DNA from: Oligoflexia bacterium
Lineage (GTDB): Bacteria; Bdellovibrionota_G; JANQFH01
NCBI GenBank assembly: GCA_028277945.1
Contig: JANQFH010000008.1
Coordinates: forward strand, 128,742-192,741
DNA length: 64,000 nucleotides
Direction of reading: 5' to 3'
The notes below the pieces were generated by a model that worked only from the letters and a program-made list of their open reading frames with translations, had not been told where the DNA came from and did no database searches. Both the position numbers and the translations under genes were made by a program. Shown piece by piece: positions 30,200-45,176 of this stretch. How positions within the stretch are numbered: the stretch's first letter is position 1; every line of letters begins with the position of its first letter.

Positions 30200-30247
30200 T
30201 ACCCATTGTATAATTATGTAGAGTCTTTATCCTCCAGGTGAATCTAC

Positions 30248-31939
30248 ATGCGCCTCTCAAAGATTTTTCCCATCAGCTTATACTTGCTTGTTATTGTCAG
30301 CTCGGGTGGACTGCTACTTGCCCAAGACGCTCCAGATGACCTAGCAAGGCTCTACAAGCTTGCCAGGAGTGCATTTAAGAGTGAGGAGTACGATCGTGCC
30401 TTTGAGTTGTTTCAAAAACTAGAGCGACAGATTAGCAAAAATCCAGAGATAGCAGATCCTGTTGCTACCGTTGATATTACATCAGCCCTTGGATACCTGT
30501 ATTACACTAAGGGAGAGCTTGAAACCGCTTCAGAAAAAGCAAGTCGAGCAATGGAGCTTATCGCCCCTTTGTTAAAGGAAAATCCTGAAGACCCACAATT
30601 ACAAAGGTTTTCTCATTCAATTCACTGGACTCTGGCTTTGATTTCCTTTGACCAAGTGAATTATCGGTCTGCCTACAAAGCGCTTACTGAGATGGCAAAA
30701 CTCGAGCAGGTAAACCCCGACCTAGTGATTGATCGAACATCGATTGCATCGTTGGCTATCCATCCTTGGAACAAAAATCATCCTGCCGTGAAAATCATTT
30801 TGGATTGTCTTAACGACGCCGTGAGCTATCTGGATAAGGATGAAGATTTGCTAGAAACCACCCGGTATTTTGTAGAAGCGGTCTCATCGGAGGAACTTTG
30901 GATCGGGGCGGCGATTAGCCGGGATGTACAAGCCGGAGCAGCCATTAGCGGTCGGCCAGTACAGTTTCTAGACCCTTCCACTTCTGACACTGTAACCACA
31001 CACTTTGTTTCGCTTTTTCCGGAAGTTTTGAATCTGCTAGTTGAGACCTATGGTGAGAATGTTTTTTCTGACGAATCTGCTGCTGAGTATGATGGTACTC
31101 CTGTCTGCTCTCCAGACATTAAAGTGAATGCTCGCTTGATTATGGCTTTGGTTCATGAAGCGCAACATTTTAGAGATATCCCAGACTATATGGATGACGA
31201 ACACAAGTTCTCTGGGAACTTCTTTGAGTTTGAAGAGAGGGGCCGACATGCCGGTGCTCTTACTCTGTCACGTCTCTTTAACGACTCAAGAGAAGCCAGT
31301 GACTATTTAGGTTATATCTCTTGGTCTGACTATATTGATCTCAGTTTATTGGAATCCGGCAGTCTTTTTGCCGCAAATAACATTACTGCTAATATGGGCT
31401 TTGTTGGTGATTATCATCGAACCAGTGTAAGCAGCGCACTGCTTGCCCCTTCAAAAGGTCGGCCACTGGAAGAGGTTACGGCATTACTTGCACAAGCTGA
31501 TGAGCGCAAATTAGAAGAAGCAGAGATCCAACGTTTGCATGAAAGCATAGGAAAGGTTTCCTCTATTGGCTCTAGTTTGCTTGAGGAAGCACAACGCACA
31601 GAGCTCTTAGAAGAGGGGCAAGGTGGTTTTGCGGTGGGCAAGGAATTGGGCTTTAATAATAGCTCGTTGTGGTGGTTCATGCGTATCGTCGCCTATCGCA
31701 AAATTTTAGAGCAAGAGGGATTTGATGTTGATGGCCCTAGTCTCGCAAAACTTGGTGGGCTAGCAGCAGACGCCAAACGTTCATTGGAAGGAACTCTAAA
31801 AGATGCAAAACAAGCTGTTGACGTTGCCGTGCCAGTAATTAATGATCAAACCGAGCCAAGCCGAAAACGCTACATTGACACTGTAGAACGGTTAAAACGC
31901 GAGTGGGATGCCAAAAGCGACACAACGACAGGTAAATAG
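30248..31939 (+). CDS. Hypothetical exported protein (563 aa) with an HExxH motif (LVHEAQHF)
   Basis: Signal peptide ISLYLLVIVSSGGLLLAQDA; HEAQH motif; otherwise unassigned. Confidence 0.5.
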   Translation: MRLSKIFPISLYLLVIVSSGGLLLAQDAPDDLARLYKLARSAFKSEEYDRAFELFQKLERQISKNPEIADPVATVDITSALGYLYYTKGELETASEKASRAMELIAPLLKENPEDPQLQRFSHSIHWTLALISFDQVNYRSAYKALTEMAKLEQVNPDLVIDRTSIASLAIHPWNKNHPAVKIILDCLNDAVSYLDKDEDLLETTRYFVEAVSSEELWIGAAISRDVQAGAAISGRPVQFLDPSTSDTVTTHFVSLFPEVLNLLVETYGENVFSDESAAEYDGTPVCSPDIKVNARLIMALVHEAQHFRDIPDYMDDEHKFSGNFFEFEERGRHAGALTLSRLFNDSREASDYLGYISWSDYIDLSLLESGSLFAANNITANMGFVGDYHRTSVSSALLAPSKGRPLEEVTALLAQADERKLEEAEIQRLHESIGKVSSIGSSLLEEAQRTELLEEGQGGFAVGKELGFNNSSLWWFMRIVAYRKILEQEGFDVDGPSLAKLGGLAADAKRSLEGTLKDAKQAVDVAVPVINDQTEPSRKRYIDTVERLKREWDAKSDTTTGK

Positions 31940-31994
31940 CGCAAAAGCTTCGATCTAATGGGGTAGAGGAAAACCTATACCGAAAATTTACTAC

Positions 31995-32915
31995 GTGTCC
32001 TATTTATATCGATTGAAGCTGAGCCTGAGTCTCTTTTTGATTGCCTGCCTGTTTGCAACCAACAGTTTTTGCTCTCCATTTGCTATAGACGATCCAGAAC
32101 GTCAGCGGAGCCTTTTCTATCCGCAGTTTGCCTCTATTTTGTTGCCAGGATTTGGGCAATGGATGGAAGGGCAGTATGGGGCGGGAGCAGCGTACAGTGG
32201 CTGGGCTCTATCCGGTATAGGGCTCACTCTTGCCCTTGACTCCAATCCAATTGAAGCCTTCAGTTTTTCCGCTATCAATGAAACTGAGGAGAGAAAACGT
32301 TTTGTAGTTCTTGGCTCGTTGATGCAACTGCACTCTGGGTTTCTTAGTAGTTATCACAGTTTTCGATCTGCTGTACGCAGCCGAGGAGACGAGTTCGACT
32401 TTCTTAAAGTAGAGGAGACGCCTCTTCAGTTACTAGCGGCACCTTTCAAGTTCACATTTCTACGCCGGCGTACAACGGCAATACCACTTATGCTCCCCCT
32501 GCTGGTTTTGTCATTAGCAGAGACTACTATAGGAGATGAGTTTTCTTTAACAGGCTCAGAACTATTTCTAGCTGGAGCGTTTTCTATGCATGCCGGCGTT
32601 GCTGAAGAAGCGGCTTTTCGTGGCTGGCTTATGCCGTTGCTTTATCATTCGACCGACAGTAAATTTTGGAGTAATACGCTGACCGCGGCAATCTTTGCAG
32701 CTGGCCACATTCCGAGTGCCAAGATACCCATTGGCCAATTCTTGACGGGTTGGTACTGGGGTTGGCTCACTCAGAGAAACCAGTGGAGTCTGTCGGAGTC
32801 CATTTTCATTCATTTTTGGTGGGACGCCTTATTGTTGATCACAGCCTTTGCTATCAATGAAGACTTGGCAGTTGGTAATGGCATCAGAATTAACCTGTTG
32901 CAGCTTCACTTCTAG
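31995..32915 (+). CDS. CPBP family (CAAX protease / Abi-type) intramembrane metalloprotease
   Basis: Multi-TM ORF with the three CPBP signatures EEAAFRGWLMP (EExxxR), FAAGHIPS (FxxxH) and HFWWDALL (HxxxD). Confidence 0.8.
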   Translation: MSYLYRLKLSLSLFLIACLFATNSFCSPFAIDDPERQRSLFYPQFASILLPGFGQWMEGQYGAGAAYSGWALSGIGLTLALDSNPIEAFSFSAINETEERKRFVVLGSLMQLHSGFLSSYHSFRSAVRSRGDEFDFLKVEETPLQLLAAPFKFTFLRRRTTAIPLMLPLLVLSLAETTIGDEFSLTGSELFLAGAFSMHAGVAEEAAFRGWLMPLLYHSTDSKFWSNTLTAAIFAAGHIPSAKIPIGQFLTGWYWGWLTQRNQWSLSESIFIHFWWDALLLITAFAINEDLAVGNGIRINLLQLHF

Positions 32916-32921
32916 TAAATT

Positions 32922-34061
32922 CTAAACAAGACTCTCTTCGTTGCAAAGCTTCCAAAATGGGATAGTTCGAATTCCACTCTTCACTGACCCACGATCAAGT
33001 TGACGACGATGTGTGCAATAGACACGCGGTATCTTAAGTAGCTCCCGGATACGCATTAAGTGGGAGGTCTCTCTTTTGTCGGAAAGTTTACATTCAACGG
33101 CAAACAGAGGCTTCTTTTTTTCAAGCACAATAAAGTCAAGCTCACGGCCGTCTCGGTCTCGAAAGTAGCGAAGTTCTGTACGGTAGCCTGCCGTATCTTG
33201 ACGGTAATGACAATACTTCAACAAATGACAAGCTACCATGTTTTCAAAACGTGTCCCTTCATCCTCGACTTGGGCCCAATCCCAAAGATAGAGCTTTGGC
33301 GTCTTTTTGATCGCACGAAGCTTTGAGGTGTGAAGTGGTAGAACCAAAAAAGACACGTAGATTCGCCCAAGAATATCAAGCCATCGTTTTATAGTGGCAT
33401 GACTCTTTTCCAGATCTTCCGCTAAACTATTGATAGATAGAGGTGATCCCACTCGTTCAGGTATTACATCAACGAGAAGTTCAAGCATCGATAAATCACT
33501 CACATTCTCAAGAGCGCTCACCTCTTCCTGAATCACACGTGTGATTCTCTCAGCACCCCAGCGACGATAAAACCTCTCGTCGGCCTTTAAGAATGGCTCT
33601 GGAAAGCCACCATATTTCAGCAGTTGGTCAACTGCCTTTGAGTCGCCAATTTCTGGAAGTGAAAGAGGATGAAGGCGATAGTAGTGATAGCGTCCTACAA
33701 GTGAATCGCCGCCTCTTCGATAGTAGTCCAAACGAGCCGAGCCCGTAACAAGACATTGACGACTTGGATAGAACTGGTCGTAAAAGCCTTTTACCAGCCG
33801 CCTCCAATGTCGGTACTTATGCACTTCATCTAAAACAATGCGCGATGGTGAGGCTGGAATCTGATCACGCCGAATCATTTGTCGGTGCAGAGGAATGTCC
33901 CAATTGAGGTAACCTTCATTCTCTTTGGTTGGTGGTGAGAGTAGTGATATTGCGAGAGTTGTCTTGCCAACCTGTCGTGGTCCACCAACGAGGACCAGCT
34001 TTTCTTTTAGGTCTCGCTGGATGTGCGCGGTCAAGTATCTTCTGGCAATTTTCATGTACAC
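32922..34061 (-). CDS. AAA+ family ATPase of the DUF4143 type
   Basis: Walker A LVGGPRQVGKTTLAISLL close to N-terminus; length and C-terminal DUF4143-like region; low-GC, mobile-element-associated family. Confidence 0.75.
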   Translation of the reverse strand: MYMKIARRYLTAHIQRDLKEKLVLVGGPRQVGKTTLAISLLSPPTKENEGYLNWDIPLHRQMIRRDQIPASPSRIVLDEVHKYRHWRRLVKGFYDQFYPSRQCLVTGSARLDYYRRGGDSLVGRYHYYRLHPLSLPEIGDSKAVDQLLKYGGFPEPFLKADERFYRRWGAERITRVIQEEVSALENVSDLSMLELLVDVIPERVGSPLSINSLAEDLEKSHATIKRWLDILGRIYVSFLVLPLHTSKLRAIKKTPKLYLWDWAQVEDEGTRFENMVACHLLKYCHYRQDTAGYRTELRYFRDRDGRELDFIVLEKKKPLFAVECKLSDKRETSHLMRIRELLKIPRVYCTHRRQLDRGSVKSGIRTIPFWKLCNEESLV

Positions 34062-34171: not shown

Positions 34172-34423
34172 GTGTTTCATGCAATCGATCGACTTAAATA
34201 TGAGGCCGAACAACTTGAGCATACTGTGACTTCGTTGGCTTTAGCTTGGAATCTCTACCATCCTTCCATAGCCGCTACGATAAAAGGTCCTAAAAGGGCA
34301 GAACACCTCGATGCAGTCAAGCGGGCGGTTAACAAACCACTAGATGAATTGCAATGGCAAAGCCTAAACGTTCTTTTTTCCGAGTGTATGCCAGACTTTG
34401 ATCTAAACAGGCTTCGTGGTTGA
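34172..34423 (+). pseudogene. C-terminal fragment of an aldo/keto reductase gene (gene remnant)
   Basis: 83-aa ORF whose product LALAWNLYHPSIAATIKGPKRAEHLDAVKRAVNKPLDELQWQSL matches only the C-terminal ~60 aa pattern (LA[WL]..P.V...I.G....E.L..N......L..E) of AKRs. No N-terminal TIM-barrel part is present. Confidence 0.45.
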
Positions 34424-34864: not shown

Positions 34865-35149
34865 TGGAGGTGGCTTGAACCCACCTAACAAGAGACTCCC
34901 GCCGCCGGAAAAGCGAAGGTGCGATTCACTCGCGCCTGAGCGCGGGGTCTGGGGGCATCGACGAGGCGTTGAATCTATAATAAATACGAGAAGCGACCCT
35001 ACAGCCGAGGAGGGCCCCCAGCTAAAATGGAGGCGGCGGGAGTACCGTTCCCACTACGCGGGAACGTTCTCCTAAGGAATGGTTCATTGTAAGCGCCTCC
35101 AGTAAAGCATTGCTTCGCAATACTTTACTGGAGGCGGCGGGAATCGAAC
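34865..35149. repeat. Cluster of tmRNA 3'-end-derived att-core copies: tRNA-like TGGAGGTGGCTTGAACCCACC (34865-34885), inverted partial copy GACTCCCGCCGCC (34894-34906), TGGAGGCGGCGGGAGT (35028-35043), and the attL copy TGGAGGCGGCGGGAATCGAAC (35129-35149)
   Basis: Direct comparison with the ssrA 3' end TGGTGGAGGCGGCGGGAGTCGAACCCGCG at 44823-44851. Extended imperfect hairpin CCTCCAGTAAAGCATTGC-TTC-GCAATACTTTACTGGAGG at 35096-35135. Confidence 0.6.
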
Positions 35150-35247: not shown

Positions 35248-35457
35248 TTATTTGCCGGAAACTGTGCGTCCAACACGATGATGGTTTAACGGTATCGTGA
35301 GTTTAGACGTACCAACTTGCTTGGCTATACTTGAATCTTCGGCCGTGCTCTCAATGATGTAGGGACTTGGGTTCTGTGTTACCCAAGCATTAGATAAACC
35401 CTTAGCTGAGGTTTGCTGTTTCTGAGCAGGGTCTTTTCTTTTTTGAGAATCTTTCAT
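35248..35457 (-). CDS. Small hypothetical protein (69 aa) at island edge
   Basis: ORF only; Lys/Gln-rich, no motif. Confidence 0.3.
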   Translation of the reverse strand: MKDSQKRKDPAQKQQTSAKGLSNAWVTQNPSPYIIESTAEDSSIAKQVGTSKLTIPLNHHRVGRTVSGK

Positions 35458-35516: not shown

Positions 35517-36620
35517 TCAGGACGACTTCTCCCATTGTGCATAGGTCTTCGGTGTACCTACAATGTAATCTAAGTCTGGTTTTCTTGCTGCGTAGACCTT
35601 ACCTCGGCTCACAAACTGTGAGGAATAACGGGTACTTTCAACAACGGCCTGAATAAGTTCAAAGTCCTGTGGAACACACTGTTGCGTTGCAATCTGATTA
35701 TTGCAGTAATTTTGCCAAAATTGCAGCAACAATTGCTGCGGCATATTCGAGGGTACATTCACCGTTGGCGGAGCCCCAATAAGAAATGCGTTGCTCGGAT
35801 CAGCCAAACAGACGCCAAGGGGGTCGAAAGGAATCCTCATCTCCATTTGGCTTTCAAGGTCTAAATAGACTTGCCAAAGCAGCTCGTCCAAGGTTTTGTC
35901 ATTTTTGGCAATCTTCAACCCCAAGTCTCTTGCTTCTTTGGGAGACACTGCATGGCCGTGACTAAAAAAACTTCTATTCAATTTTTCAGCAATTGCATCT
36001 GCTTTAGTCGCATCAGCCCCTGTCATATGCATCTTTAACAGGCGCTTTGCCATAGTTACTGATTGTCCTGATGATCGTTTTGATGCACCCAAGACTGTTG
36101 GTTTCACTTCCTTTACCAGATGCTCAAATAGCTGAGCCAAATAGGATTGTTCCGAAAGCTTGCCTTCCTCCTCAAGAAATTTTGCGAAGGCGACTATATC
36201 TTCGTAGGAAAACCCTTGCTGACCTTCCTTTGTCGTAACTGTAATTTGGGGGTCAACCGGCCCTAAACAAGCCATAGGATGCATATAGATCTCATCTGCT
36301 CCAAGCGCTATCAATGTAGCCGCACTAAACGCATAATGGGGCACCAAAACTCCTATTTTTCCTTTGGTTCCTATCTTTTCCCGAATCAGGGACATAATTC
36401 GCCATGATGCCAGCCCGTCTCCACCAGTACTGTTAATAACAATATCCAGGTCGTCAGAGTTTTTGGGAAGAACATTCAACTGGTCGATAAATTCCCTAAC
36501 TGCATCAGCAGCGATTTGGCCTGGAGCATTTCTTCGTCCGCTGGTTGCATATGTGATGAGCGGTCTTTTCCGATGAGTTTCTATCTTCTCGTAAATCTTT
36601 TTTCGTTCTGTCAACGCCAT
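35517..36620 (-). CDS. ClpP/SppA-fold (crotonase-like, S14/S49 / SDH-family-like) serine peptidase, 367 aa, island cargo
   Basis: DLDIVINSTGGDGLASWRIMSLIRE (INSxGG oxyanion/nucleophile-elbow region of ClpP/SppA) and catalytic-Ser-like context HYAFSAATLIALGADEIYMHPMACLGPV; about 150-aa C-terminal extension. Confidence 0.6.
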   Translation of the reverse strand: MALTERKKIYEKIETHRKRPLITYATSGRRNAPGQIAADAVREFIDQLNVLPKNSDDLDIVINSTGGDGLASWRIMSLIREKIGTKGKIGVLVPHYAFSAATLIALGADEIYMHPMACLGPVDPQITVTTKEGQQGFSYEDIVAFAKFLEEEGKLSEQSYLAQLFEHLVKEVKPTVLGASKRSSGQSVTMAKRLLKMHMTGADATKADAIAEKLNRSFFSHGHAVSPKEARDLGLKIAKNDKTLDELLWQVYLDLESQMEMRIPFDPLGVCLADPSNAFLIGAPPTVNVPSNMPQQLLLQFWQNYCNNQIATQQCVPQDFELIQAVVESTRYSSQFVSRGKVYAARKPDLDYIVGTPKTYAQWEKSS

Positions 36621-36789
36621 GATATCAACATTTCCTCTTGAGGCTTCTCTTAGCCGATTAGTGAACCAAAGACCTCCAAAAATAGGTTAGATTAGTATGT
36701 TTGACAAGAGGCCTGTCTAATTTAGTCAAGTAGGCTGATACATGTAGAATAACAAAGAGTTATCTATTCTGCACTATCCAATAGTCTAT

Positions 36790-37596
36790 TCATTTTCCGT
36801 TAGGTGAATTTTGCCTAGCTTTGTCAAGCAAGTTGGCCAACATACTTAGAAATCCTATGCACTGTAACGCATTTTCTGGCGTATCTGGATCAAGTGTATG
36901 TGCTCTGGGGTTTCTGAACGCTAAAACTGCACCTTCAAATAAGTGCATGATTCCTTCCTGTTCATCTTGATCTGATTGATCTTTCGCTTCATTGAAAGCA
37001 AGCACGGGTTTATTTTTTGAGAATACAGTCCTCATTAAGGGGGCACCATCAAGATCATGCCGCCTTGACTTTTCTTTGACATAGTTGACTAAGGCTAAGC
37101 AAGCATCTAACACTGCATTGCGATAATGGCCATTACGAAACAAATCGGCTGAAACAGCGGAGATACGGGGGTGTAGTTCGAGACCTTCAAAAGTTATACG
37201 GGCTCGTATAGTAGGATCAGAGTCGGCATCTTCAAGATTCTCCTTAAGGTCGTTTATCAGTCCTTCCAATAACTTGACTGTTTGTGGAATGCCATTTGTG
37301 AATCTTCGTTGAATTTCGGATTGAGTCATCATCATATGCATTGGCCCGTGCCAAATCTGATGATGCTGGTTATCTTGATACTGACGAGACTGTGTTCCAT
37401 AAATTCCTTGGATTGTCGAGACAATTTGTCTTTCAATGTTGGTCACCGCCTGATCATCTGGCCGTATATTTTGTGGGTCTAGCGCTTTTACGTCAGCGAT
37501 TCGTCGTCTTAGCTTTTTGATTCCTTTCTTGATTTGGTCGGCTGTAAGCTGTTGATTTTCAGGTTCAGGATGTTGGTATGATCTTGTTGGATGCAT
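36790..37596 (-). CDS. Candidate HEPN-domain protein (TIGR02391/Hypoth_Ymh-like, Abi-associated) with C-terminal Rx4H motif
   Basis: C-terminal AVLAFRNPRAHTLDPDTPENALQCIGFLSMLANLL contains R-N-P-R-A-H (Rx4H), the HEPN RNase signature; helical protein of 268 aa; island cargo next to XRE regulator. Confidence 0.5.
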   Translation of the reverse strand: MHPTRSYQHPEPENQQLTADQIKKGIKKLRRRIADVKALDPQNIRPDDQAVTNIERQIVSTIQGIYGTQSRQYQDNQHHQIWHGPMHMMMTQSEIQRRFTNGIPQTVKLLEGLINDLKENLEDADSDPTIRARITFEGLELHPRISAVSADLFRNGHYRNAVLDACLALVNYVKEKSRRHDLDGAPLMRTVFSKNKPVLAFNEAKDQSDQDEQEGIMHLFEGAVLAFRNPRAHTLDPDTPENALQCIGFLSMLANLLDKARQNSPNGK

Positions 37597-37654: not shown

Positions 37655-37933
37655 CTACCTAAACAGTGTCTTGGGATCAATACCAGAAGCTTTACATATG
37701 CGCCAAATAGTCATGAGGGTAGGGTTGCCTTCGCCTTTCTTAATTCGAGCAACATAGCGAGGATCTAGCCCAGCAAGCATCTGTTTTCTTTGGCTCATTC
37801 CAGCCTTTTGCAACGCATCAATAAGGTTTTTGCGAAACCGCTTGGAAAAGGTTGCATATGCTTCTTTATAAGCCATAGCCGACTTATAAATAGCCATGCA
37901 ATATCTGCCTATGGTATAATAGACCATAGGCAC
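37655..37933 (-). CDS. XRE-family helix-turn-helix transcriptional regulator (likely start at MAIYKS, 37897)
   Basis: QRKQMLAGLDPRYVARIKKGEGNPTLMTIWRICKASGIDPKTLF is a typical XRE/Cro-type HTH. Confidence 0.7.
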   Translation of the reverse strand: MPMVYYTIGRYCMAIYKSAMAYKEAYATFSKRFRKNLIDALQKAGMSQRKQMLAGLDPRYVARIKKGEGNPTLMTIWRICKASGIDPKTLFR

Positions 37934-37965: not shown

Positions 37966-38388
37966 TTGTTCAAGTTTCAGCTCATCGCACTACTGCTCTT
38001 TCCGCTTATTGCTTCCTCAGGGGAGACAGCGGTTGTTCCTAAACATAAGCCGTCGGCTTACAAATTTGTTGTCTTGAACTACCGAGTTATTGATGGGGAT
38101 ACCATCGATGCAACCGTTGACCTCGGTTTTCATATCACCAAGACGGATCGTTTTCGCTTTCTTGGTATGGATGCCCCTGAGATAAACCACGAAAAGACTC
38201 GTCAAGCCGGCCAAAAGGCAAAGCAATTCGTCATCAAAAAATTAGCAACAGCAAAAGTGATTGAAATTGAGACTTTCAAACAGGGTAAATTTGGCCGGTA
38301 CTTAGCTACTATCTGGCTAGATCAAAACTACAACAAATCACTTAACCAACTGCTGTTAGATAGAAACTTGGCAATCCCCGTGAAGTAG
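37966..38388 (+). CDS. Secreted staphylococcal-nuclease-like (SNase/thermonuclease) protein
   Basis: Signal peptide LIALLLFPLIASSGE. VIDGDTIDATVDLGFH...RFRFLGMDAPEINH...GRYLATIWLD matches the SNase OB-fold active-site region (R..G.DAPE). Confidence 0.7.
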   Translation: MFKFQLIALLLFPLIASSGETAVVPKHKPSAYKFVVLNYRVIDGDTIDATVDLGFHITKTDRFRFLGMDAPEINHEKTRQAGQKAKQFVIKKLATAKVIEIETFKQGKFGRYLATIWLDQNYNKSLNQLLLDRNLAIPVK

Positions 38389-38402: not shown

Positions 38403-39065
38403 ATGGATAATAGTCACAGGCAAAACGTAATGATATTAAAATTAATTTTGTCTTTTGTCGGGCTCGCCGTGATGTTTGCCTGCTGTTCGGTTTACTGCAA
38501 TAGGCCAGCACAGAAAGCTGAGGACAAGAAAGTCATGAAAGAGCATCACAAAAGATTGAAGGAGGGCGGCAATAAACAGCAGAACCTCAAAAAAGGGGAA
38601 GCGCGTCGAAATGCGCCCAAAAGAGAGATTTCTAAGACTGGGGGGCCGTATTTTCCTGGCTTGAATGCCTCTGACATCTATCTCAATCTGAAAAAACGTG
38701 GTTTCGATTGTGTTGGTCCTAAATCCAGCAAAATCGGTGTTTCCTGGTACTGCCAGGACGAAAGGTTTTCAACTCGTAGTTGGAGTGTAACAATTCGTGG
38801 AGAAGGATACTCGCAACTAACATTTGTCACAGCGACGAGCCTCAATTATGGGAAGGGGTCATCTGATGAGATAGCACGGGAGTTTCTTGGCTTTGTAGCT
38901 TCGTTGCCCTATGAAGGTGCAGAACCAGCTAAGGCAAAGGCGTGGGTACTGAGAAATGTTGGAAAGAGAAATGTCTCCTACCGCATTGGAGCGGCAAGAT
39001 TCGAACTTTCTTCAAACGCGAGAGCGCGGATTTTGGACATCTCGGTTGTCTCAGATTCTAAATAG
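38403..39065 (+). CDS. Membrane-anchored/lipoprotein-like hypothetical protein (220 aa)
   Basis: N-terminal hydrophobic segment ILKLILSFVGLAVMFACCS followed by Lys-rich region; no motif. Confidence 0.4.
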   Translation: MDNSHRQNVMILKLILSFVGLAVMFACCSVYCNRPAQKAEDKKVMKEHHKRLKEGGNKQQNLKKGEARRNAPKREISKTGGPYFPGLNASDIYLNLKKRGFDCVGPKSSKIGVSWYCQDERFSTRSWSVTIRGEGYSQLTFVTATSLNYGKGSSDEIAREFLGFVASLPYEGAEPAKAKAWVLRNVGKRNVSYRIGAARFELSSNARARILDISVVSDSK

Positions 39066-39073
39066 CAGTTGCA

Positions 39074-39619
39074 TCAATCCAAATCCTCTTCGGTAAATTG
39101 TCGTTGGGAAGAATTGAGGCAAGACGTTTCGAGCTGGACTCTTGATCTCCAAAACTTGATAAGCGAGTCGTAGATAAACTTTTCATGCTCTTGATTAGGC
39201 AAAATGAACTCACATTGAAAATCCATTTCTAGTCGAAACGCCTTCGCAAGAGGTTCGGCCTGGGTTAGCATTTTATCTGGTTCAACACCGATTTTTTTGC
39301 AGAAGCGGCGAAACCCACTCTGGACAGCTATAAGTGTTCCGAATGCCTCTGTTATCTCTCCAAACGCATCCTCGGTAAACACTGCTAGGGTATAGCGATG
39401 ATATGCCTCCCACCAGAATAGATTCACAATCATGCAAAGCTCGCGGCAGATATTAAAATAACCGAAGAACTCCATGTCGCGAGCTAGATATGCCCTCTTA
39501 GGGCACGTACTAAAGAGTTTCGTGATTTCCTCATTGTCTTTCCGAAAACTACTGTCCAAAACCAGTAAGAATCTCTCCCATACGGTTATGTTTTCGTAGT
39601 GCCGAGTGACGCCTTTCAT
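39074..39619 (-). CDS. Hypothetical island protein (181 aa), translationally coupled to upstream gene (ATGA overlap)
   Basis: ORF; 4-nt overlap with 39616-39933. Confidence 0.45.
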   Translation of the reverse strand: MKGVTRHYENITVWERFLLVLDSSFRKDNEEITKLFSTCPKRAYLARDMEFFGYFNICRELCMIVNLFWWEAYHRYTLAVFTEDAFGEITEAFGTLIAVQSGFRRFCKKIGVEPDKMLTQAEPLAKAFRLEMDFQCEFILPNQEHEKFIYDSLIKFWRSRVQLETSCLNSSQRQFTEEDLD

Positions 39620-39933
39620 TTTGCTCCATTCCTTTGGCTCAAAATTTCTTCAAGCGCCTCAACCCTGCCAACTATCTGTACAGCCTCAACCGCTCGAAGA
39701 GCGATGCCGGCAAGATAACCAATAGTACGTGCTCGCGCTATTGTTTCCACTTTAGGATCAGATTTTACCGTTTGGACCTGCTCTTCAATTAGTAATAAGA
39801 CGTCCCTAGCCGTTTGAAGCCGAAAAGAAGAAGGTATCTGGGTTTGACACGGGGTTTGACTACTTCCAGCGCGTTGCAGCTGCTTGTATTCGCGCTGATA
39901 GTTCCTGCTTTTCTCTGGGTCTTTGTAGGGCAT
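39616..39933 (-). CDS. Hypothetical island protein (105 aa) immediately downstream of primase gene
   Basis: ORF starting 3 nt after the primase stop. Confidence 0.4.
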   Translation of the reverse strand: MPYKDPEKSRNYQREYKQLQRAGSSQTPCQTQIPSSFRLQTARDVLLLIEEQVQTVKSDPKVETIARARTIGYLAGIALRAVEAVQIVGRVEALEEILSQRNGAK

Positions 39934-39936
39934 GGG

Positions 39937-42444
39937 TCAGCTTTCCATATTAGATCCAAGGTTTTCTAATGTTCCGCTAGTTGGCGGAAAATGGGAAAGA
40001 TGGGAAACTTGATGCCATTCTCCAAATACTTGTTTCTCTTTTTTCCCTTTTTCCGGCAACTTTAAGAGCAAGGGACTAACACGATAAATGGTGGTCGGTT
40101 TTCGGGTAGCCACTCTTTTTGGCTTACTGATTAAGTTGCGATCACTTAGAATCTTTAGTGCACACGTCAAATGTTCCGACTTTCCAAATTTTCTATGGCG
40201 CATGGCTGAGGTAAGCTGCGTGCGAGTAAATGAGGGCTTTCCTTGTGCCATAATCCATTGGAAGATCTCTTTTGCATTTTCGACTGTTTGATCTGCTCCC
40301 ATCAAGCCATAGGCTGCAATCATATGCTCTGTGAGCAGAGCAGCTATTGTTAGGGCCTTTGCCATTGTCTCTCCAGAAATAACGAGCTGCTCTTGGTCAT
40401 AATTCCCAACATGCAAAATTCCCGCTAGACGAAGAGCAAACCCACATATTTTCCCGCCACTACCCAGACAAGGTGCTAGCCTGCCATCTGGTCGAAGCTG
40501 AGTTTCTATTTTCGCTTGAAATTCACGCCATTCTTGAAGAGCTTCAGGTGAAAGAGTTAGAACATGGCGTCGATCTTGGTCTTCTTTGGGCAATGACGGA
40601 AGGTCTAGCAGCATTTTAATCTTTTGGTGGTAAGCTTGCCGAGCTTCCAAAGGAACCGGCGGCTTATCATGAGTGCGATATCCGAGTTTACTTTTTGGTA
40701 TGACAAAGAGAAAACGTTCTAACATTCCATTGCCAGTAAAGGCCTTTTTAGATCTCATATTTTGGATAATGACGGGCTGCACAGTCAAAACAATCGTGAG
40801 AAAAGGTGTTATGTCAAAATTACGGTCTTTACGTCGAATCCTTACGTGTCCACCATCGATTCCCTTCAACAAAATATCTACGTTTGCCGAACCCCCGGTG
40901 TAAAGGCCGCTCATGGTCTCGACAATGCCTCCCTCATCTGAAAATATAGCGAAATGCCCTCCTTGCTCATAAACGCTATTAGCAAGCGCCTCAGGCGTTG
41001 TATCGTTAGAGAATAGCTGTGGCAGGGCTTGGGGTTCAATTAAAGATATCTCTTCCTCGGCGATTTTGTTGATTAGTTCTCGTTGTTTTGAAGCATCTTT
41101 TTCCCGTGCGGCCTTAGCCCTTAGGGATTCGATAATTTTCTCTTGGCTTTTTCGTTCCGAGCGCTGCCGTTTGATTTCGGCCTCTAAAGTTTGTGCTTGT
41201 TCACGTTCCCAGCTTATGAGTGGTTCCGTACAGTTATTAAAGACCTGTGTTTTATTATTTGCTGGGGGGAGAGCAATAAGTGTGTAAATATTAAGGGACT
41301 CACGCCAACCATCCTTCGGACTGACGACAAAGTGTTTTGCTGCCGCAGCCGATACCGTGCCAAGAACGCACATTACAGCCAGAGCCTCAGGGACTTCTGT
41401 GGACGTAGCAAGTGCCGCGGCAAATTTTCCGAGCACACCTGGCAAAAGGTCCGCTGGAATATCTGGTGTCTCGATCTCCTCAAAGAGGATCGGATCGTCC
41501 CACAGGCCGGAATCATCCTTTCGTGGGGTTGAGAACTTGATCCATTCCGACGGTACGGCGTGTAAATGATGCTTGATAGCATCAAGCAATCTTTCTTGTA
41601 TTTTTGCCCGCATCGGATGATCGTCTAATGAGGTCAACTCGTTCCAGTCAGTAAGTTCGGGTTGCTGTTTTAGCCAGTCGCAAACGTCCCCTTTTTCAGG
41701 CAACCCAGGCAGGCGAACTACTTTCATCACTGGTGCTGGTTTGCAATCCTGTATGATCCGCCAAACCTTTTTGATATAGCCTTCTCCCGCTTTGTCATTA
41801 TCTGGGGCGAGGTATATAAGGCTGACACCTTCCAACTCCTTCCAGTTAGTAAGATGGGCGCTACTCGCACCAAATAAACTTGTTACACACTGAAGACCGA
41901 GCCCTGCAAAAGCTGCTTGCTTTTTCTGCCCTTCAACCACGACAATAGCGTCATTCTTGTCTGTAAGAGTATCGAGTCCAATGAGGGGGTAACCGTTCTT
42001 TTTCATCTCCTGTGGTATGCCGGGCAAGAAACTTTTTCCGTTGGACCGGTAAAAGGGAATGTCCTCTTTGGGCTTGCCATTTCTGCCGGGAGCAAACCGT
42101 CTGATTTCGCCGATCACTTGACCGGTCTTATCCCGGTGTTCCCAAACAAAAATAGGGTTAGCCATTTTGCTATTCCAAGCTCCAAGTGCCAGTGCGGCCT
42201 CCTTGAAAGATTGCTGGTGCCGCTTCATTTGAAAACTAAGCACGTCGCCGCCACGCGCCCCGCACGCCATGCAACGATAACAACCGATACTAAGGTGTAC
42301 TCGCAGGGATGGTTTGTGATCGTCGTGGAAGGGGCAAATAGCCGATCTCCACTCACCGTTGCCAATCAACTTGAGGCCCTGAGCGTGGTAATAATCCGCA
42401 GGGTTTGGAAGGCGATCACGTGCAAAGCCGAATTGAGTCATTCG
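39937..42444 (-). CDS. Phage/plasmid (P4-type) DNA primase: N-terminal CHC2 zinc finger + Toprim domain + large C-terminal DUF3987-like domain (likely start MTQFGF at 42444; track start 42495 overlaps alpA)
   Basis: CPFHDDHKPSLRVHLSIGCYRCMACGARGGDV (CHC2 zinc finger). IVVVEGQKKQAAFAGLGLQCV...YLAPDNDKAGEG (Toprim E/DxD). Long C-terminal domain. Confidence 0.8.
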   Translation of the reverse strand, partial: RMTQFGFARDRLPNPADYYHAQGLKLIGNGEWRSAICPFHDDHKPSLRVHLSIGCYRCMACGARGGDVLSFQMKRHQQSFKEAALALGAWNSKMANPIFVWEHRDKTGQVIGEIRRFAPGRNGKPKEDIPFYRSNGKSFLPGIPQEMKKNGYPLIGLDTLTDKNDAIVVVEGQKKQAAFAGLGLQCVTSLFGASSAHLTNWKELEGVSLIYLAPDNDKAGEGYIKKVWRIIQDCKPAPVMKVVRLPGLPEKGDVCDWLKQQPELTDWNELTSLDDHPMRAKIQERLLDAIKHHLHAVPSEWIKFSTPRKDDSGLWDDPILFEEIETPDIPADLLPGVLGKFAAALATSTEVPEALAVMCVLGTVSAAAAKHFVVSPKDGWRESLNIYTLIALPPANNKTQVFNNCTEPLISWEREQAQTLEAEIKRQRSERKSQEKIIESLRAKAAREKDASKQRELINKIAEEEISLIEPQALPQLFSNDTTPEALANSVYEQGGHFAIFSDEGGIVETMSGLYTGGSANVDILLKGIDGGHVRIRRKDRNFDITPFLTIVLTVQPVIIQNMRSKKAFTGNGMLERFLFVIPKSKLGYRTHDKPPVPLEARQAYHQKIKMLLDLPSLPKEDQDRRHVLTLSPEALQEWREFQAKIETQLRPDGRLAPCLGSGGKICGFALRLAGILHVGNYDQEQLVISGETMAKALTIAALLTEHMIAAYGLMGADQTVENAKEIFQWIMAQGKPSFTRTQLTSAMRHRKFGKSEHLTCALKILSDRNLISKPKRVATRKPTTIYRVSPLLLKLPEKGKKEKQVFGEWHQVSHLSHFPPTSGTLENLGSNMES

Positions 42445-42446
42445 TT

Positions 42447-42650
42447 TTACCTTTTTGGGCCCTTTTGTGATTGTGTTATGCGCTCGGTGATCCAATGGTC
42501 AACTTCACTGGAGATCCATGCAACGGACCGTGATCCAAGCCGAACAGGTTTTGGAAAATCGCCGTCGGCTATCTTTTCATAGAGTGAGGACCGAGGAAGG
42601 CCAGTTAGGGCCTCGACTACTCGTCGGCGAAGCAGTTTTTTTGTATCCAT
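42447..42650 (-). CDS. alpA: AlpA-family phage regulatory protein / excisionase-like MerR-type HTH
   Basis: LLRRRVVEALTGLPRSSLYEKIADGDFPKPVRLGSRSVAWISSEVDHWI is the canonical AlpA/Xis pattern. Confidence 0.8.
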   Translation of the reverse strand: MDTKKLLRRRVVEALTGLPRSSLYEKIADGDFPKPVRLGSRSVAWISSEVDHWITERITQSQKGPKR

Positions 42651-42753: not shown

Positions 42754-43422
42754 CTACTTGAAATCTAAGTGTTTTTTTCTAAATGACGGGGTGTTGGCTG
42801 GTAGTGTTTTGTTGATTCGATTCTTGATTTGATTTGGCGAAAGCAAAAATTTTCGGAATTTAGGAGGGTAAAAACTCTCTATCGCCTTTAACGCCTCGGC
42901 AGTTAACGAGAACGCTTTATCAGCGTATCTCCTGATCCCATCCATATCCATTTCCTCATTGATGACATCGGTAATCTTTTTGAGCATTATAGTAAAACCA
43001 CCAACATCGGTGAATTTACGTTTCCCTTTTGGGAGAGTCTTGTTGTCAGAAGAAAATTTTGTATAATCCAGTCTCGTTTCATAAAGATAACTAAAAATCT
43101 TTTCCGCCTGCCTCCAATCCTCGACAGAAAAGGGCTGTGGATCAGCTTGCCTCATAGCGCAAAACGCTATGATTTTTTTTAGTTCACGGTCTGTTACGTC
43201 AAAACCAAGCCTGTCTTTTACGATGGAAGAGGAGTACAAATCGGCATATTTTAACGTTAGCTTATGCAGGTCTATGCTCAGAATTTTTGCAATTGACCGC
43301 AATGTTTTGGGTTTTAGAGAAGATAGTCTTTCATTTTGATGAAACAGTTTCACATAACCATCTTCACGCTCTTTCCGAAATTGAGCTTTTGTGTACTTAA
43401 ATCTATAGGAGAAATCAGTCAT
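42754..43422 (-). CDS. Hypothetical island protein (222 aa), start overlaps integrase stop by 4 nt
   Basis: ORF, Lys-rich, no motif recognised; translationally coupled to int. Confidence 0.45.
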   Translation of the reverse strand: MTDFSYRFKYTKAQFRKEREDGYVKLFHQNERLSSLKPKTLRSIAKILSIDLHKLTLKYADLYSSSIVKDRLGFDVTDRELKKIIAFCAMRQADPQPFSVEDWRQAEKIFSYLYETRLDYTKFSSDNKTLPKGKRKFTDVGGFTIMLKKITDVINEEMDMDGIRRYADKAFSLTAEALKAIESFYPPKFRKFLLSPNQIKNRINKTLPANTPSFRKKHLDFK

Positions 43423-44579
43423 ATTTTTTGGATGTTGCTTAGGCTAGCCATACTTTGCAGAGAAATCACTTGGGCCCCTCTCTTCAAATTATCAAGATAG
43501 TCAGCCCATTGCTGCATCATTTTTCTTCGCTCGACGAGGTGAGCGGTGCGGTTATAGGCTCGTCCGTTGGGATCGCGGACAGCATGGGCCAGTTGGTGTT
43601 CGATGAAGTCAGGGCGGACGCCTAAGATTTCATCCAGCATGGTGCGCGCCATGGCGCGAAAGCCGTGGCCGCTCATTTGGTCTTTGGTGTAGCCCATGCG
43701 TCTCAGGGCGGCCAGAACAGCATTATTGCTCATCGGCCTGGTGTTGGTACGCATGCTGGGGAAAACATAGCGGCCATCACCGGTCACCTGGTGAATCTCG
43801 CGCAGAACTGCAAGAGCTTGCCTTGATAGGGGAACCAGATGCGGTTCGCGCATCTTCATGCGTTCGGCTGGGATATTCCATTCAGCGTGGTCAAAGTCGA
43901 TCTCTTGCCACTGTGCTTTGCGAAGTTCACCAGGCCGGACAAACACCAAGGGAGCTAGGCGCAACGCGTACTTCGTCACAATAAAACCTTCGTAGTCGTC
44001 AATGGCACGTAGTAGCCCGCCAACATCGTTAGGGCTGGTGATTGCAGCTAAATGTTGTTTTTTGACTGCTGGTAAGGCACCACGCAAGTCATTGGAGATA
44101 TCTCGCTCAGCACGACCTGTTGCAACGGCATAACGAAAAACCTGTCCGCAGTTTTGCAAGACCCGATGGGCGGTTTCTATGGCTCCACGTTCTTCAATGC
44201 GACGAAGCGCTGTTAGCAGTTGAGGTGGTTTGATGTCGGCAATAGGGTGTTTACCGATCCAAGGTAAGATATCCTTTTCAAGTCGCTGCAAGATCCTGTG
44301 GCCATGGCCTTGGGACCAGTTATGAGAATTTTTGGCAAGCCATTCTCGCACCACCACTTCAAAACTATTAGCTACTTTCTGTGCTCTTGCTGCTTTAAAG
44401 GCTTTGCGGTGTTCGCTAGGGTCCACATCATCGGCGAGCAACTTCCTAGCTTGAGTATGACGTTCCCTGGCATCTTTTAGGCTCACGTCGGGATAGACAC
44501 CGAGAGACAACCGCTTTTCTTTGCCATCAAAGCGGTATTTGAAGCGCCACCACTTGCCACCGGTTGGAGCTACCTCCAA
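43419..44579 (-). CDS. int: Tyrosine site-specific integrase (P4-type)
   Basis: N-terminal arm-binding region (WRFKYRFDGKEKRLSLGVYPDVSLKDARE); catalytic region HGFRAMARTMLDE...IEHQLAH...AYNR with R..H..R..Y arrangement; located next to the ssrA 3' end. Confidence 0.9.
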   Translation of the reverse strand: MEVAPTGGKWWRFKYRFDGKEKRLSLGVYPDVSLKDARERHTQARKLLADDVDPSEHRKAFKAARAQKVANSFEVVVREWLAKNSHNWSQGHGHRILQRLEKDILPWIGKHPIADIKPPQLLTALRRIEERGAIETAHRVLQNCGQVFRYAVATGRAERDISNDLRGALPAVKKQHLAAITSPNDVGGLLRAIDDYEGFIVTKYALRLAPLVFVRPGELRKAQWQEIDFDHAEWNIPAERMKMREPHLVPLSRQALAVLREIHQVTGDGRYVFPSMRTNTRPMSNNAVLAALRRMGYTKDQMSGHGFRAMARTMLDEILGVRPDFIEHQLAHAVRDPNGRAYNRTAHLVERRKMMQQWADYLDNLKRGAQVISLQSMASLSNIQKI

Positions 44580-44822: not shown

Positions 44823-45176
44823 TGGTGGAGGCGGCGGGAGTCGAACCCGCGTCCGAAAGTCTCTTGGAGACAGGCAGCTACATGTTTAGCGCGTGATTTA
44901 AGTCTCGCACCTTAAAGCTCCCACGAGCAGGATCTTAAAATGCCAGCCCATCAAAAGTCTCATTGCTAACGTGATTGGCGCCGCTAGCAACCAGCCTGCT
45001 AGTTTTGCGCCCCAGCCCCTGTAGCAGGCGTCGGAGGTGAGACGTGGCTGTCAATTAAGCAGCCAATGCATAGTTGTCAGTGCCAACTATGTTTTTTCCA
45101 TCCGTTTTACGAGCAGACGGAACCCTCGACATGCTCCTGAATCCTTGATGACCCCCGTCGAGACCACATCGCCCCC
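44823..45176 (-). ncRNA. ssrA: tmRNA (transfer-messenger RNA), about 354 nt
   Basis: 5' end GGGGGCGAUGUGGUCUCGACGGGGG and 3' tRNA-like end GGACGCGGGUUCGACUCCCGCCGCCUCCACCA. Internal tag reading frame ...GGC ACU GAC AAC UAU GCA UUG GCU GCU UAA (predicted tag ending DNYALAA). Adjacent to smpB. Confidence 0.9.

What the first reader, a model, noticed from the sequence alone, without database searches (positions are those of the whole stretch)
35517..37596. Island cargo: candidate HEPN (Rx4H) protein plus ClpP/SppA-fold serine peptidase, flanked by an XRE regulator and a secreted SNase. Possible novel defence or helper-interference module
Within the satellite-like element, the region between the primase block and attL carries, on one strand, an XRE HTH gene, a 268-aa helical protein and a 367-aa ClpP/SppA-fold peptidase. 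The 268-aa protein ends FRNPRAHTLD..LQCIGFLSMLANLL, an Rx4H motif characteristic of HEPN RNases and of the TIGR02391/Hypoth_Ymh Abi-associated family. The peptidase shows the INSTGGDG region and an AFSAATLIALGA catalytic-Ser context, plus an extra ~150-aa C-terminal domain. On the opposite strand sit a secreted SNase-like nuclease and a membrane-anchored protein. The HEPN-plus-ClpP-fold combination is not one of the defence architectures I can name. In satellites this position typically holds anti-phage or helper-manipulation genes. A ClpP-like protease could alternatively act in capsid maturation hijacking.
Basis: partly seen in the sequence, partly recalled or inferred. Interest (0 to 1): 0.75.

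Follow-up and report, generated by a model that had tools for sequence, protein, structure and literature searches.

The report
Two unrelated cargo modules, not one
The HEPN gene and the ClpP-like protease gene on this tmRNA-inserted island are neighbours by chance; the protease's true conserved partner is an overlooked 69-residue protein just downstream, and together they form an uncharacterised mobile two-gene cassette.

Summary
There is a 268-aa Hypoth_Ymh/TIGR02391 HEPN protein with an invariant Rx4H, a 367-aa SDH-type ClpP-fold serine protease, an XRE gene and a secreted SNase. All lie at the attL end of a 9.7-kb int–AlpA–primase island inserted in the tmRNA gene.

The proposed HEPN-plus-protease system is not supported. 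None of 43 other distinct protease loci carries the HEPN next to the protease, and none of 86 HEPN loci carries the protease.

The HEPN is a stand-alone gene. Three of its five distinct homolog contexts lie beside restriction or Abi genes.

The protease is almost always followed by a small hydrophilic protein, here at 35248-35457(-). These partners share only a short core motif, [GST]-P-[YF]-x4-[ST], present in 34 of 44 loci against 1.2% of control ORFs (p = 7e-49). No other neighbour is conserved. The cassette occurs across many phyla, often near tRNA or tmRNA genes, on a plasmid, and in accessory regions of phages. It never occupies the head-protease position.

No literature or defence database describes it. 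My best guess, by inference only, is a toxin-antitoxin or abortive-infection module in which the small protein restrains the protease.

The parts
35129..35149 (.). attL: direct repeat of the tmRNA 3' end, marking the distal island boundary
   Evidence: 20 of 21 bases identical to 44826-44846.
35248..35457 (-). 69-aa hydrophilic small protein with the core motif NPSPYIIESTAED; the conserved partner of the protease
   Evidence: A same-strand downstream small ORF with [GST]P[YF]x4[ST] occurs in 34 of 44 distinct protease loci against 24 of 1948 control ORFs (Fisher p = 7e-49). It is a called gene in the source record. The same arrangement appears in a curated plasmid record.
35475..35504 (-). Promoter-like site (TTGATA-18-TATAAT with TG) in the 60-nt gap before the small ORF
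   Evidence: This is the best consensus match in the region, 11 of 12. It is a consensus match only and its function is not shown.
35517..36620 (-). 367-aa SDH-type ClpP-fold serine protease with a helical middle region and a C-terminal beta domain
   Evidence: PF01972 at E 1e-19. Invariant S99, D123, D141, H198 and H221. AlphaFold model pLDDT 85. Foldseek hits to SppA, 1510-N and ClpP. The family has 632 representatives at E<=1e-30.
36790..37596 (-). 268-aa stand-alone Hypoth_Ymh/TIGR02391 HEPN protein: a helical N-terminal half plus a C-terminal HEPN domain with Rx4H (R228..H233)
   Evidence: PF09509 at E 3.4e-31 and TIGR02391 at 82 bits. PADLOC hits Aga_HEPN 1e-15, PD-Lambda-3_B 1e-10 and PDC-S35 1e-6. 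Invariant Rx4H and DEQEG. Homologs occur alone, and three of five contexts lie beside R-M or Abi genes.
37655..37933 (-). XRE-family HTH gene, probably an island or cargo regulator; not a conserved partner of either cargo gene
   Evidence: PF01381 at E 2.8e-6. phmmer gives 0 hits in 86 HEPN loci and 2 weak hits near 43 protease loci.
37966..38388 (+). Secreted SNase-like nuclease
   Evidence: PF00565 at E 7.6e-10 and phrog_452 endonuclease at E 3e-30. The N-terminus is hydrophobic.
38403..39065 (+). 220-aa protein with an N-terminal hydrophobic segment and no family match
39937..42495 (-). Primase (CHC2 zinc finger, Toprim) fused to DUF3987; the island's replication module
   Evidence: DUF3987 at E 5e-88 and Zn_ribbon_DnaG at E 5e-13.
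42447..42650 (-). AlpA-like excisionase or regulator
   Evidence: phrog_2790 at E 1.5e-11. PF05930 is recorded for this gene in the source record.
43419..44579 (-). Tyrosine integrase
   Evidence: NF007246 at E 8e-75. Arm-DNA-bind_3 and Phage_integrase are recorded in the source record.
44823..45176 (-). tmRNA gene (ssrA), the integration target; its 3' end (44826-44846) is attR
   Evidence: ARAGORN and the repeat.

Best explanation
The cargo end of a 9.7-kb tmRNA-integrated int-AlpA-primase island carries two independent accessory modules that merely sit side by side.

Module 1 is a stand-alone Ymh-family HEPN protein. I infer that it is a latent RNase of the abortive-infection type, with the helical N-terminal half acting as sensor or regulator and the Rx4H domain as effector.

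Module 2 is a self-contained two-gene cassette. It consists of a cytoplasmic SDH-type ClpP-fold serine protease with a family-specific C-terminal domain, followed by a small, hydrophilic, probably disordered protein. The only conserved feature of that protein is a ~12-15-residue motif, roughly phi-Y-R-[ST]-[ST]-P-[YF]-E-[FY]-[DE]-x-T.

My proposed mechanism for Module 2 is inference only. The small protein would bind the protease through this motif as a pseudo-substrate or bait and keep it harmless. When the partner is lost (for example when host gene expression is shut off, or the element is lost) or displaced, the protease would be free to cleave host or phage proteins. That would make the cassette a toxin-antitoxin, addiction or abortive-infection module.

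Shown: the gene pairings, the motif, the fold and the mobility. Inferred: the binding, the toxicity and any defence role.
For: Independence of the two genes.
- The HEPN is next to the protease in 0 of 43 other distinct protease loci.
- The protease is absent from 86 HEPN loci.
- A 169-nt spacer with a promoter-like site separates the two genes.

The cassette.
- The downstream small ORF carries the motif in 34 of 44 loci against 1.2% of control ORFs, p = 7e-49. Most exceptions carry variant motifs.
- A curated plasmid record shows the same pair.
- No other neighbour is conserved, and the flanking genes are heterogeneous.
- The family spans Acidobacteriota, Planctomycetota, Spirochaetota, Patescibacteria, Chloroflexota and DPANN archaea.
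- A tRNA or tmRNA gene lies within 1.5 kb in 8 of 39 loci. Integrases, resolvases and primases occur nearby.
- In phage contigs the cassette lies beside Schlafen/AlbA, methylase-Mrr and PLD nuclease genes.
- The catalytic Ser and the Asp and His candidates are invariant.
- The small proteins have no TM-like segment, a median GRAVY of -0.26, and diverge much faster than the protease (21% against 43% median identity).
- The partner type changes when the protease's C-terminal region changes, and many relatives keep only profile positions 1-275.
- A strong promoter-like site lies directly before the small ORF.

The HEPN.
- The profile matches are strong and the Rx4H pair is invariant.
- It hits PADLOC defence models.
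- Homologs lie beside GmrSD and type I R-M, beside Abi_alpha, type IIG R-M and DUF4145, and beside Schlafen and PDDEXK genes.
Against: There is no experimental or structural evidence that the small protein binds the protease.

The protease has no hit in PADLOC, and I found no literature on it.

Defence genes make up only a minority of the cassette's neighbours, and many neighbours are housekeeping genes.

Which way the partnership runs is undetermined: the small protein could be an inhibitor, a substrate or an activator.

For the HEPN, fold comparison does not separate HEPN structures from generic four-helix bundles. Two of five homolog contexts are neutral.
Confidence: 0.55

Rival explanations
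1. HEPN and protease work together as a single two-gene defence system. For example, the protease would activate or license the HEPN RNase by cleavage.
For: The two genes are adjacent, on the same strand, and in the cargo region of a mobile island. Protease-activated effectors exist in other immune systems (general knowledge).
Against: Co-occurrence is 0 of 43 from the protease side and 0 of 86 from the HEPN side. Each gene belongs to its own full-length family with other contexts. A 169-nt spacer with a promoter-like site lies between them. The protease has a different, near-universal partner.
Confidence: 0.04
2. The small protein is the protease's dedicated substrate. Either it is a precursor processed at or near the conserved motif into an active peptide (a signal or a toxin), or it is a small toxin that the protease continuously degrades, making the protease the antitoxin as in a type VI-like system.
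For: The genes are strictly linked and the small protein has a conserved linear motif in a variable background. ClpP-fold relatives bind extended peptides and cleave partners encoded in the same operon: the 1510-N protease cleaves stomatin, and SppA processes its own C-terminus. These are the top structural matches.
Against: The small proteins have no signal peptide or TM segment, so export is unsupported and they do not look like membrane toxins. No transporter or modification enzyme is conserved nearby. No cleavage site can be defined from sequence.
Confidence: 0.2
3. The protease is a life-cycle regulator of mobile elements, analogous to ImmA/ImmR: an anti-repressor protease that cleaves an XRE-type repressor. 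The small protein would modulate it.
For: An XRE gene lies upstream in the window, in the P0065 loci and weakly in L010 and L060. The cassette is frequently located in integrative elements and prophages.
Against: The XRE is not a conserved neighbour: 2 weak hits in 43 loci, and no conserved neighbour cluster was found. Many cassettes have no recognisable mobile-element genes beside them. The protease fold is unrelated to the ImmA metalloprotease.
Confidence: 0.1
4. The protease is a prohead or capsid-maturation protease used for helper-capsid hijacking.
For: There are weak matches to head-maturation protease profiles over about 75 residues around the catalytic Ser (phrog_94 at 1.9e-10; NF045542 at 42 bits).
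Against: The scores are far below the curated cutoff (42 against 120 bits). In phage contigs the gene is never in the portal-protease-scaffold-capsid position. It lies upstream of terminase, divergent from the packaging genes, or between Q and holin. Most copies are in non-viral contexts, including a plasmid and archaeal genomes. The island has no capsid genes.
Confidence: 0.03

Closest known systems
Hypoth_Ymh / TIGR02391 family of HEPN domains (Anantharaman et al. 2013, PMC3710099)
   Same: There is a strong profile match and an invariant Rx4H motif. The family occurs as solo genes and near R-M systems, as that paper describes for the Ymh family.
   Different: This ~265-aa subfamily has its own conserved helical N-terminal half (residues 1-135), which has no Pfam assignment. 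No member has been tested experimentally as far as I could find.
PD-Lambda-3 (two-gene defence system: PD-(D/E)XK nuclease plus the B protein) and PADLOC candidate PDC-S35
   Same: The C-terminal half matches PD-Lambda-3_B (E 1e-10, similar overall length). The N-terminal half matches PDC-S35 (E 1e-6).
   Different: No PD-(D/E)XK partner is adjacent, and none of the ten island and flanking proteins scanned hit a PD-Lambda-3_A model. Each match covers only half of the protein.
SDH-type ClpP-fold serine proteases (Pfam PF01972; NCBIfam NF047768)
   Same: The Pfam match is above the gathering score. Ser, then Asp, then His are invariant in that order. The fold is ClpP-like.
   Different: The score is only 83 bits against the 250-bit equivalog cutoff. 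This protein has an added helical region and a C-terminal beta domain, and it is obligately paired with a small motif-bearing protein.
SppA (S49) and the NfeD/1510-N stomatin-specific protease
   Same: These are the best structural matches. They are self-compartmentalising ClpP-fold serine proteases that bind extended peptides. 1510-N cleaves a partner encoded in the same operon.
   Different: Those enzymes use a Ser-Lys dyad and are membrane-associated. Here no conserved Lys lies at the equivalent spacing, there is no TM segment, and the partner is a small soluble protein. Sequence identity is 14-20%.
Toxin-first type II toxin-antitoxin and abortive-infection cassettes
   Same: It is a compact two-gene cassette with sporadic distribution across phyla, located in islands, prophages and plasmids. 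The small partner evolves fast and is probably disordered. A possible separate promoter precedes the small gene.
   Different: No known TA toxin is a ClpP-fold protease, to my knowledge. The small protein has no DNA-binding domain. Neither toxicity nor neutralisation has been shown.

Membership tests
HEPN superfamily, Hypoth_Ymh/TIGR02391 family | Profile match above the curated cutoffs | tested here: met
   PF09509 at 108 bits against a cutoff of 25. TIGR02391 at 82 bits against 39.45.
HEPN superfamily, Hypoth_Ymh/TIGR02391 family | Conserved Rx4-6H catalytic motif | tested here: met
   R228 and H233 are invariant in 33 homologs.
HEPN superfamily, Hypoth_Ymh/TIGR02391 family | Four-helix up-down bundle (HEPN fold) | tested here: inconclusive
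HEPN superfamily, Hypoth_Ymh/TIGR02391 family | RNase activity | not testable with these tools
   This needs biochemistry.
PD-Lambda-3 defence system | B-type protein together with an adjacent PD-(D/E)XK nuclease (A) | tested here: not met
   The B model matches only residues 136-262 (E 1e-10). None of the ten island and flanking proteins scanned hit an A model. The system composition is taken from PMC10952713.
SDH-type ClpP-fold serine protease (PF01972) | Profile match above the gathering score | tested here: met
   71 bits against a cutoff of 31.3, but only residues 49-127 aligned.
SDH-type ClpP-fold serine protease (PF01972) | Ser, Asp and His conserved in that order | tested here: met
   S99, D123/D141 and H198/H221 are invariant in 35 homologs. 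Which Asp and which His are catalytic was not determined.
SDH-type ClpP-fold serine protease (PF01972) | ClpP/crotonase-like fold | tested here: met
   Foldseek probability 1.0 to SppA, 1510-N and ClpP.
NCBIfam NF047768 Clp_like_SDH (equivalog) | Score above the equivalog cutoff | tested here: not met
   83 bits against a cutoff of 250. This is a distinct subfamily.
Phage head-maturation (prohead) protease | Encoded in the head module next to portal, scaffold and capsid genes, with a profile match | tested here: not met
   NF045542 at 42 bits against 120. The positions in phage contigs and in a lambdoid element are accessory or moron sites.
   0 of 43 other protease loci and 0 of 86 HEPN loci.
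Toxin-antitoxin / abortive-infection cassette (protease plus small protein) | Conserved bicistronic pairing and mobile, sporadic distribution | tested here: met
Toxin-antitoxin / abortive-infection cassette (protease plus small protein) | Toxicity of one component neutralised by the other; phage protection | not testable with these tools
   This needs expression and phage-challenge experiments.
ImmA/ImmR-type anti-repressor pair | Conserved adjacency of the protease to an XRE repressor | tested here: not met
   2 weak XRE hits in 43 loci.
Phage satellite (PICI / P4-like) | Integrase, excisionase or regulator, and primase-replicase core | tested here: met
Phage satellite (PICI / P4-like) | Genes for capsid redirection, packaging or helper interference | tested here: inconclusive
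   None was recognised by Pfam, PHROGs or NCBIfam. Four island proteins (105, 181, 220 and 222 aa) have no match.

The most novel reading that the evidence does not exclude
The SDH-type ClpP-fold protease plus the 'SPY-motif' small protein is a previously unrecognised class of mobile toxin-antitoxin or abortive-infection system. It is spread across bacteria, archaea, plasmids and phages. A dedicated, ATPase-independent ClpP-fold protease would be held in check by a disordered pseudo-substrate partner and released on infection or element loss. The swappable C-terminal domain and the co-varying partner would set specificity.
Probability: 0.3. Interest if true: 0.7.

Novelty: new variant of a known kind. 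Interest (0 to 1): 0.45.

Why it matters
The headline idea, a HEPN-ClpP defence architecture, should be dropped. That saves effort on a pairing that exists only in this genome.

What remains is a concrete, testable lead. A compact protease-plus-small-protein cassette has about 630 family representatives at 50% identity (E<=1e-30). It is found in many bacterial phyla and some archaea, on plasmids, in prophages and in tRNA- or tmRNA-linked islands. It is absent from PADLOC and from the literature I could search.

If it is a TA or abortive-infection module, it would add a ClpP-fold protease to the known effector repertoire. It would also give a simple system for studying how a short linear motif controls a self-compartmentalising protease.

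The HEPN gene adds one more untested member to a family that keeps turning up in defence islands.

Tried and rejected
1. Co-folding the protease with its small partner, using 24 locus-paired fused sequences (alignment A3).
2. Foldseek of the HEPN model against the PDB gave nothing significant. Profile searches of both families against PDB sequences also gave nothing.
3. jackhmmer on the small proteins found nothing beyond the seed itself. They can only be aligned by anchoring on the motif.
4. A search for a third conserved gene around the protease found none, by BLAST clustering within 5 kb either side. The same search around the HEPN recovered only repeated copies of the same strain's locus and antisense artefacts.
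5. Natural protease-small-protein fusions: none among 120 homologs.
6. I asked whether the 9,894-bp Logan contig was an excised circle. It is simply colinear with the window.
7. Five literature searches (PF01972/SDH protease; ClpP-like with defence or TA terms; S49 with satellites; TIGR02391/PDC-S35) returned nothing relevant beyond the 2013 HEPN survey.
8. The prohead-protease reading was rejected on gene position and sub-threshold scores.
9. The ImmA/ImmR-like reading was rejected because the XRE is not a conserved neighbour.
Full report
**1. What is in the sequence**

- ORF 36790-37596(-) encodes 268 aa. Residues 140-256 match Pfam Hypoth_Ymh (PF09509, E 3.4e-31, 108 bits against a cutoff of 25) and TIGR02391 (82 bits against 39).
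- ORF 35517-36620(-) encodes 367 aa and matches the SDH-type ClpP-like protease family PF01972 (E 1e-19, 71 bits against 31).
- The upstream XRE gene (PF01381) and the divergent SNase (PF00565, hydrophobic N-terminus) are also real.

The element is well defined.
- A tmRNA gene lies at 44823-45176(-).
- Its 3' end (44826-44846) is repeated, 20 of 21 bases identical, at 35129-35149.
- This bounds a 9.7-kb island carrying an integrase, a 222-aa unknown, an AlpA-like gene, a primase-DUF3987 gene, two small unknowns, and then the cargo.

It is a called gene in the source record.

**2. Are the HEPN and the protease a pair? No.**

The protease belongs to a full-length family of about 365 aa. The word-indexed search found 526 hits. 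The exhaustive profile search found 632 representatives at E<=1e-30.

I fetched 80 genomic loci for this family, plus loci from exact look-ups. I then searched all six-frame ORFs with an HMM built from 120 homologs of the 268-aa HEPN protein.
- Among 44 distinct full-length protease loci, only the window has the HEPN next door.
- One locus has a partial hit 7.6 kb away.

I also ran the reciprocal test. I fetched 80 metagenomic loci for the HEPN family, plus 6 from look-ups.
- The protease HMM hits none of the 86 loci.
- Thirty-nine of them have at least 1.5 kb of downstream sequence.

In the window the two genes are separated by 169 nt that contains a promoter-like site. The XRE gene is not a conserved partner of either gene.

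**3. What the protease is really paired with**

Every context I inspected showed a small same-strand ORF immediately downstream of the protease.

Systematically, 35 of 44 distinct loci have such an ORF (56-100 aa) containing P-[YF]-x4-[ST], against 4.9% of 1,948 control small ORFs from the same loci. With the stricter pattern [GST]-P-[YF]-x4-[ST], the figures are 34 of 44 against 1.2%, Fisher p = 7e-49.

Most of the exceptions carry variants:
- SPH in place of SPY or SPF;
- TPFEFEVV;
- an ORF too short for my ORF caller;
- in two Rhodothermales loci, tandem SPYEKFFPPY repeats.

Anchoring on the proline gives a core of roughly phi-Y-R-[ST]-[ST]-P-[YF]-E-[FY]-[DE]-x-T-[AGS]-E. In the window it reads NPSPYIIESTAED.

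Outside the motif the proteins cannot be aligned.
- Their median pairwise identity is 21%, against 43% for the proteases.
- They are hydrophilic (median GRAVY -0.26) and have no TM-like segment.

A curated plasmid record from Candidatus Chlorohelix shows the same arrangement: a 367-aa protease followed by a 74-aa CDS containing GPFRFSTT.

No other neighbour is conserved, and no natural fusions exist among 120 homologs.

The partner tracks the protease's C-terminal region.
- Distant relatives below 120 bits lack the partner.
- A Methanoplasma/Lentisphaerae clade, whose protease diverges after about residue 270, has a different conserved 59-aa downstream ORF.
- Many database relatives match only profile positions 1-275.
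- The C-terminal ~90 residues therefore look like a swappable module that co-varies with the partner. This last step is inference from few cases.

**4. The protease itself**

- S99 (in AFSAAT), D123, D141, H198 and H221 are invariant in 35 homologs. That fits the Ser-Asp-His order that names the SDH family.
- The AlphaFold model (pLDDT 85, pTM 0.81) has a ClpP-fold core at residues 1-138, a helical region at 139-310 and a beta domain at 318-365.
- Foldseek's best matches are B. subtilis SppA, the archaeal 1510-N stomatin-specific protease and ClpP. TM-scores normalised to the query are only about 0.35, because just the N-terminal part aligns.
- No solved structure is detectable by sequence.
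- The protein scores 83 bits against the 250-bit cutoff of the NCBIfam SDH equivalog, so it is a distinct subfamily.
- Head-maturation protease profiles match only about 75 residues around the catalytic Ser, well below cutoff.

**5. Where the cassette lives**

The family occurs in Acidobacteriota, Planctomycetota, Spirochaetota, Gemmatimonadota, Rhodothermales, Myxococcota, Patescibacteria, Chloroflexota and DPANN archaea.

The two nearest genes on each side (140 proteins) are heterogeneous.
- The commonest families are integrases (4 members) and DNA methylases (3).
- BamHI, RloB/AbiLii, a PLD nuclease, a resolvase, a transposase and a tail protein each occur once.
- Ordinary housekeeping genes are also present.

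A tRNA or tmRNA gene lies within about 1.5 kb in 8 of 39 loci. My rough estimate for random placement is around 5%, so this points to island edges, as in the window.

In viral contigs the cassette sits in accessory positions, never after the portal where a prohead protease belongs:
- beside Schlafen/AlbA and a methylase-Mrr fusion;
- beside an ATPase and a PLD nuclease;
- divergent from terminase and portal;
- upstream of a putative terminase and a Mu-type portal.

A distant relative in a 43.7-kb E. coli lambdoid element lies alone, on the opposite strand, between antiterminator Q and the holin. That is the classic moron site.

The protease has no PADLOC hit. Five literature searches found nothing on this family in any conflict context.

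**6. The HEPN protein**

- The family is about 265 aa long, with 1,132 hits.
- R228 and H233 (the Rx4H pair), a DEQEG loop and H157-Y158 are invariant.
- PADLOC models match in halves. Aga_HEPN and PD-Lambda-3_B match the C-terminal half. The single-gene candidate PDC-S35 matches the N-terminal half.
- PD-Lambda-3 pairs its B protein with a PD-(D/E)XK nuclease. No such gene is present here.
- The AlphaFold model is all-alpha (pLDDT 88).

Homologs occur alone. Three of five distinct contexts are defence-like:
- GmrSD plus a type I R-M system;
- Abi_alpha, an integrase, a type IIG methylase, a recombinase and DUF4145;
- Schlafen/AlbA plus PDDEXK_4.

The other two contexts are neutral. This agrees with the 2013 HEPN survey, which lists Ymh as solo genes or fusions in R-M neighbourhoods.

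**7. Most likely mechanism**

These points are shown:
- there are two independent cargo modules;
- the protease keeps its catalytic residues and has a ClpP fold;
- the protease has an obligate small partner with a short linear motif;
- the cassette is mobile and sporadically distributed.

These points are inferred.
- The small protein docks on the protease through the motif and restrains it, as a pseudo-substrate or bait.
- Loss or displacement of the fast-evolving, probably unstable partner frees the protease to cleave host or phage proteins.
- That would give addiction or abortive-infection behaviour.

The best promoter-like site in the region (11 of 12, with TG) lies immediately before the small ORF. 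It would fit separate, higher expression of an antitoxin-like partner, but it is only a consensus match.

I put about 0.3 on this specific mechanism and about 0.9 on the independence of the two modules.

The rival explanations are:
- the small protein is a substrate or precursor, or a toxin that the protease degrades (0.2);
- the protease is an ImmA-like life-cycle regulator (0.1);
- the HEPN and protease form one joint system (0.04);
- the protease is a prohead protease (0.03).

**8. Novelty and verdict**

The HEPN is a new member of a known, untested family. The HEPN-plus-protease architecture is a coincidence of cargo packing.

The protease-plus-small-protein cassette appears undescribed, and it is the part worth following up. 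As a kind it most resembles toxin-first TA or Abi cassettes, but with a new effector fold. I therefore rate the whole as a new variant of a known kind, with interest 0.45.

The 'satellite' label for the island is unproven. It has the int-AlpA-primase core but no recognisable capsid or packaging genes.

Noticed in passing
window 34865-34885 and 35028-35048: Two further degenerate copies (71% identity) of the tmRNA 3'-end repeat lie just outside attL. The second is embedded in a stretch resembling a tmRNA T-arm and acceptor end. They look like scars of earlier integrations at ssrA.
   Followed up: partly
window 32922-34061 (-): An AAA_14 + DUF4143 ATPase lies just outside the island. It matches the PADLOC single-gene defence candidate PDC-S01 (E 5e-49), so the ssrA-downstream region may be a broader variable or defence hotspot. 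GC is lower from about 24 to 45 kb.
   Followed up: no
window 34172-34423 (+): An 83-aa ORF matches only the C-terminal end of aldo/keto reductases (profile positions 224-286 of 291). It is probably a truncated gene remnant beside the att scars.
   Followed up: no
window 14031-23738 (-): A giant 3,235-aa ORF lies upstream of the low-GC region. I did not examine it.
   Followed up: no
window 28190-32915 (+): A same-strand run of three genes in the low-GC flank: a HEAT-repeat protein (669 aa), a TPR-like protein (563 aa) and an Rce1-like/CPBP intramembrane protease (306 aa).
   Followed up: no
L028 9250-9620 and L029 9260-9620 (Rhodothermales): Downstream of the protease there is no single small ORF with one motif. 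Instead the sequence encodes tandem repeats of SPYEKFFPPY(H/Q)P..., that is, several motif copies in a row.
   Followed up: partly
L054, L055, L056 (Lentisphaerae, Methanoplasma): Protease relatives that diverge after about residue 270 are followed by a different conserved 59-60-aa ORF (MTYIQGTSYSSASESVSY...KLEYALRKHKRGLELLSQ). This suggests the partner co-varies with the protease's C-terminal module.
   Followed up: partly
L210 4992-5987 (E. coli plasmid NZ_CP081794): A distant relative of the protease (28.7% identity, residues 5-267, annotated 'serine protease') sits alone on the opposite strand between antiterminator Q and the holin of a lambdoid element. That is a classic moron position.
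   Followed up: partly
window 38403-39065 (+), 39074-39619 (-), 39616-39933 (-), 42754-43422 (-): Four island proteins (220, 181, 105 and 222 aa) have no match in Pfam, PHROGs, NCBIfam or PADLOC. Any satellite-type helper-interference function would have to reside here.
   Followed up: no
L209 7465-11445 (Ca. Chlorohelix plasmid): Immediately downstream of the protease-small-protein pair lies a 1,326-aa gene annotated 'AAA domain-containing protein', on the same strand. I did not see this arrangement in other loci.
   Followed up: no
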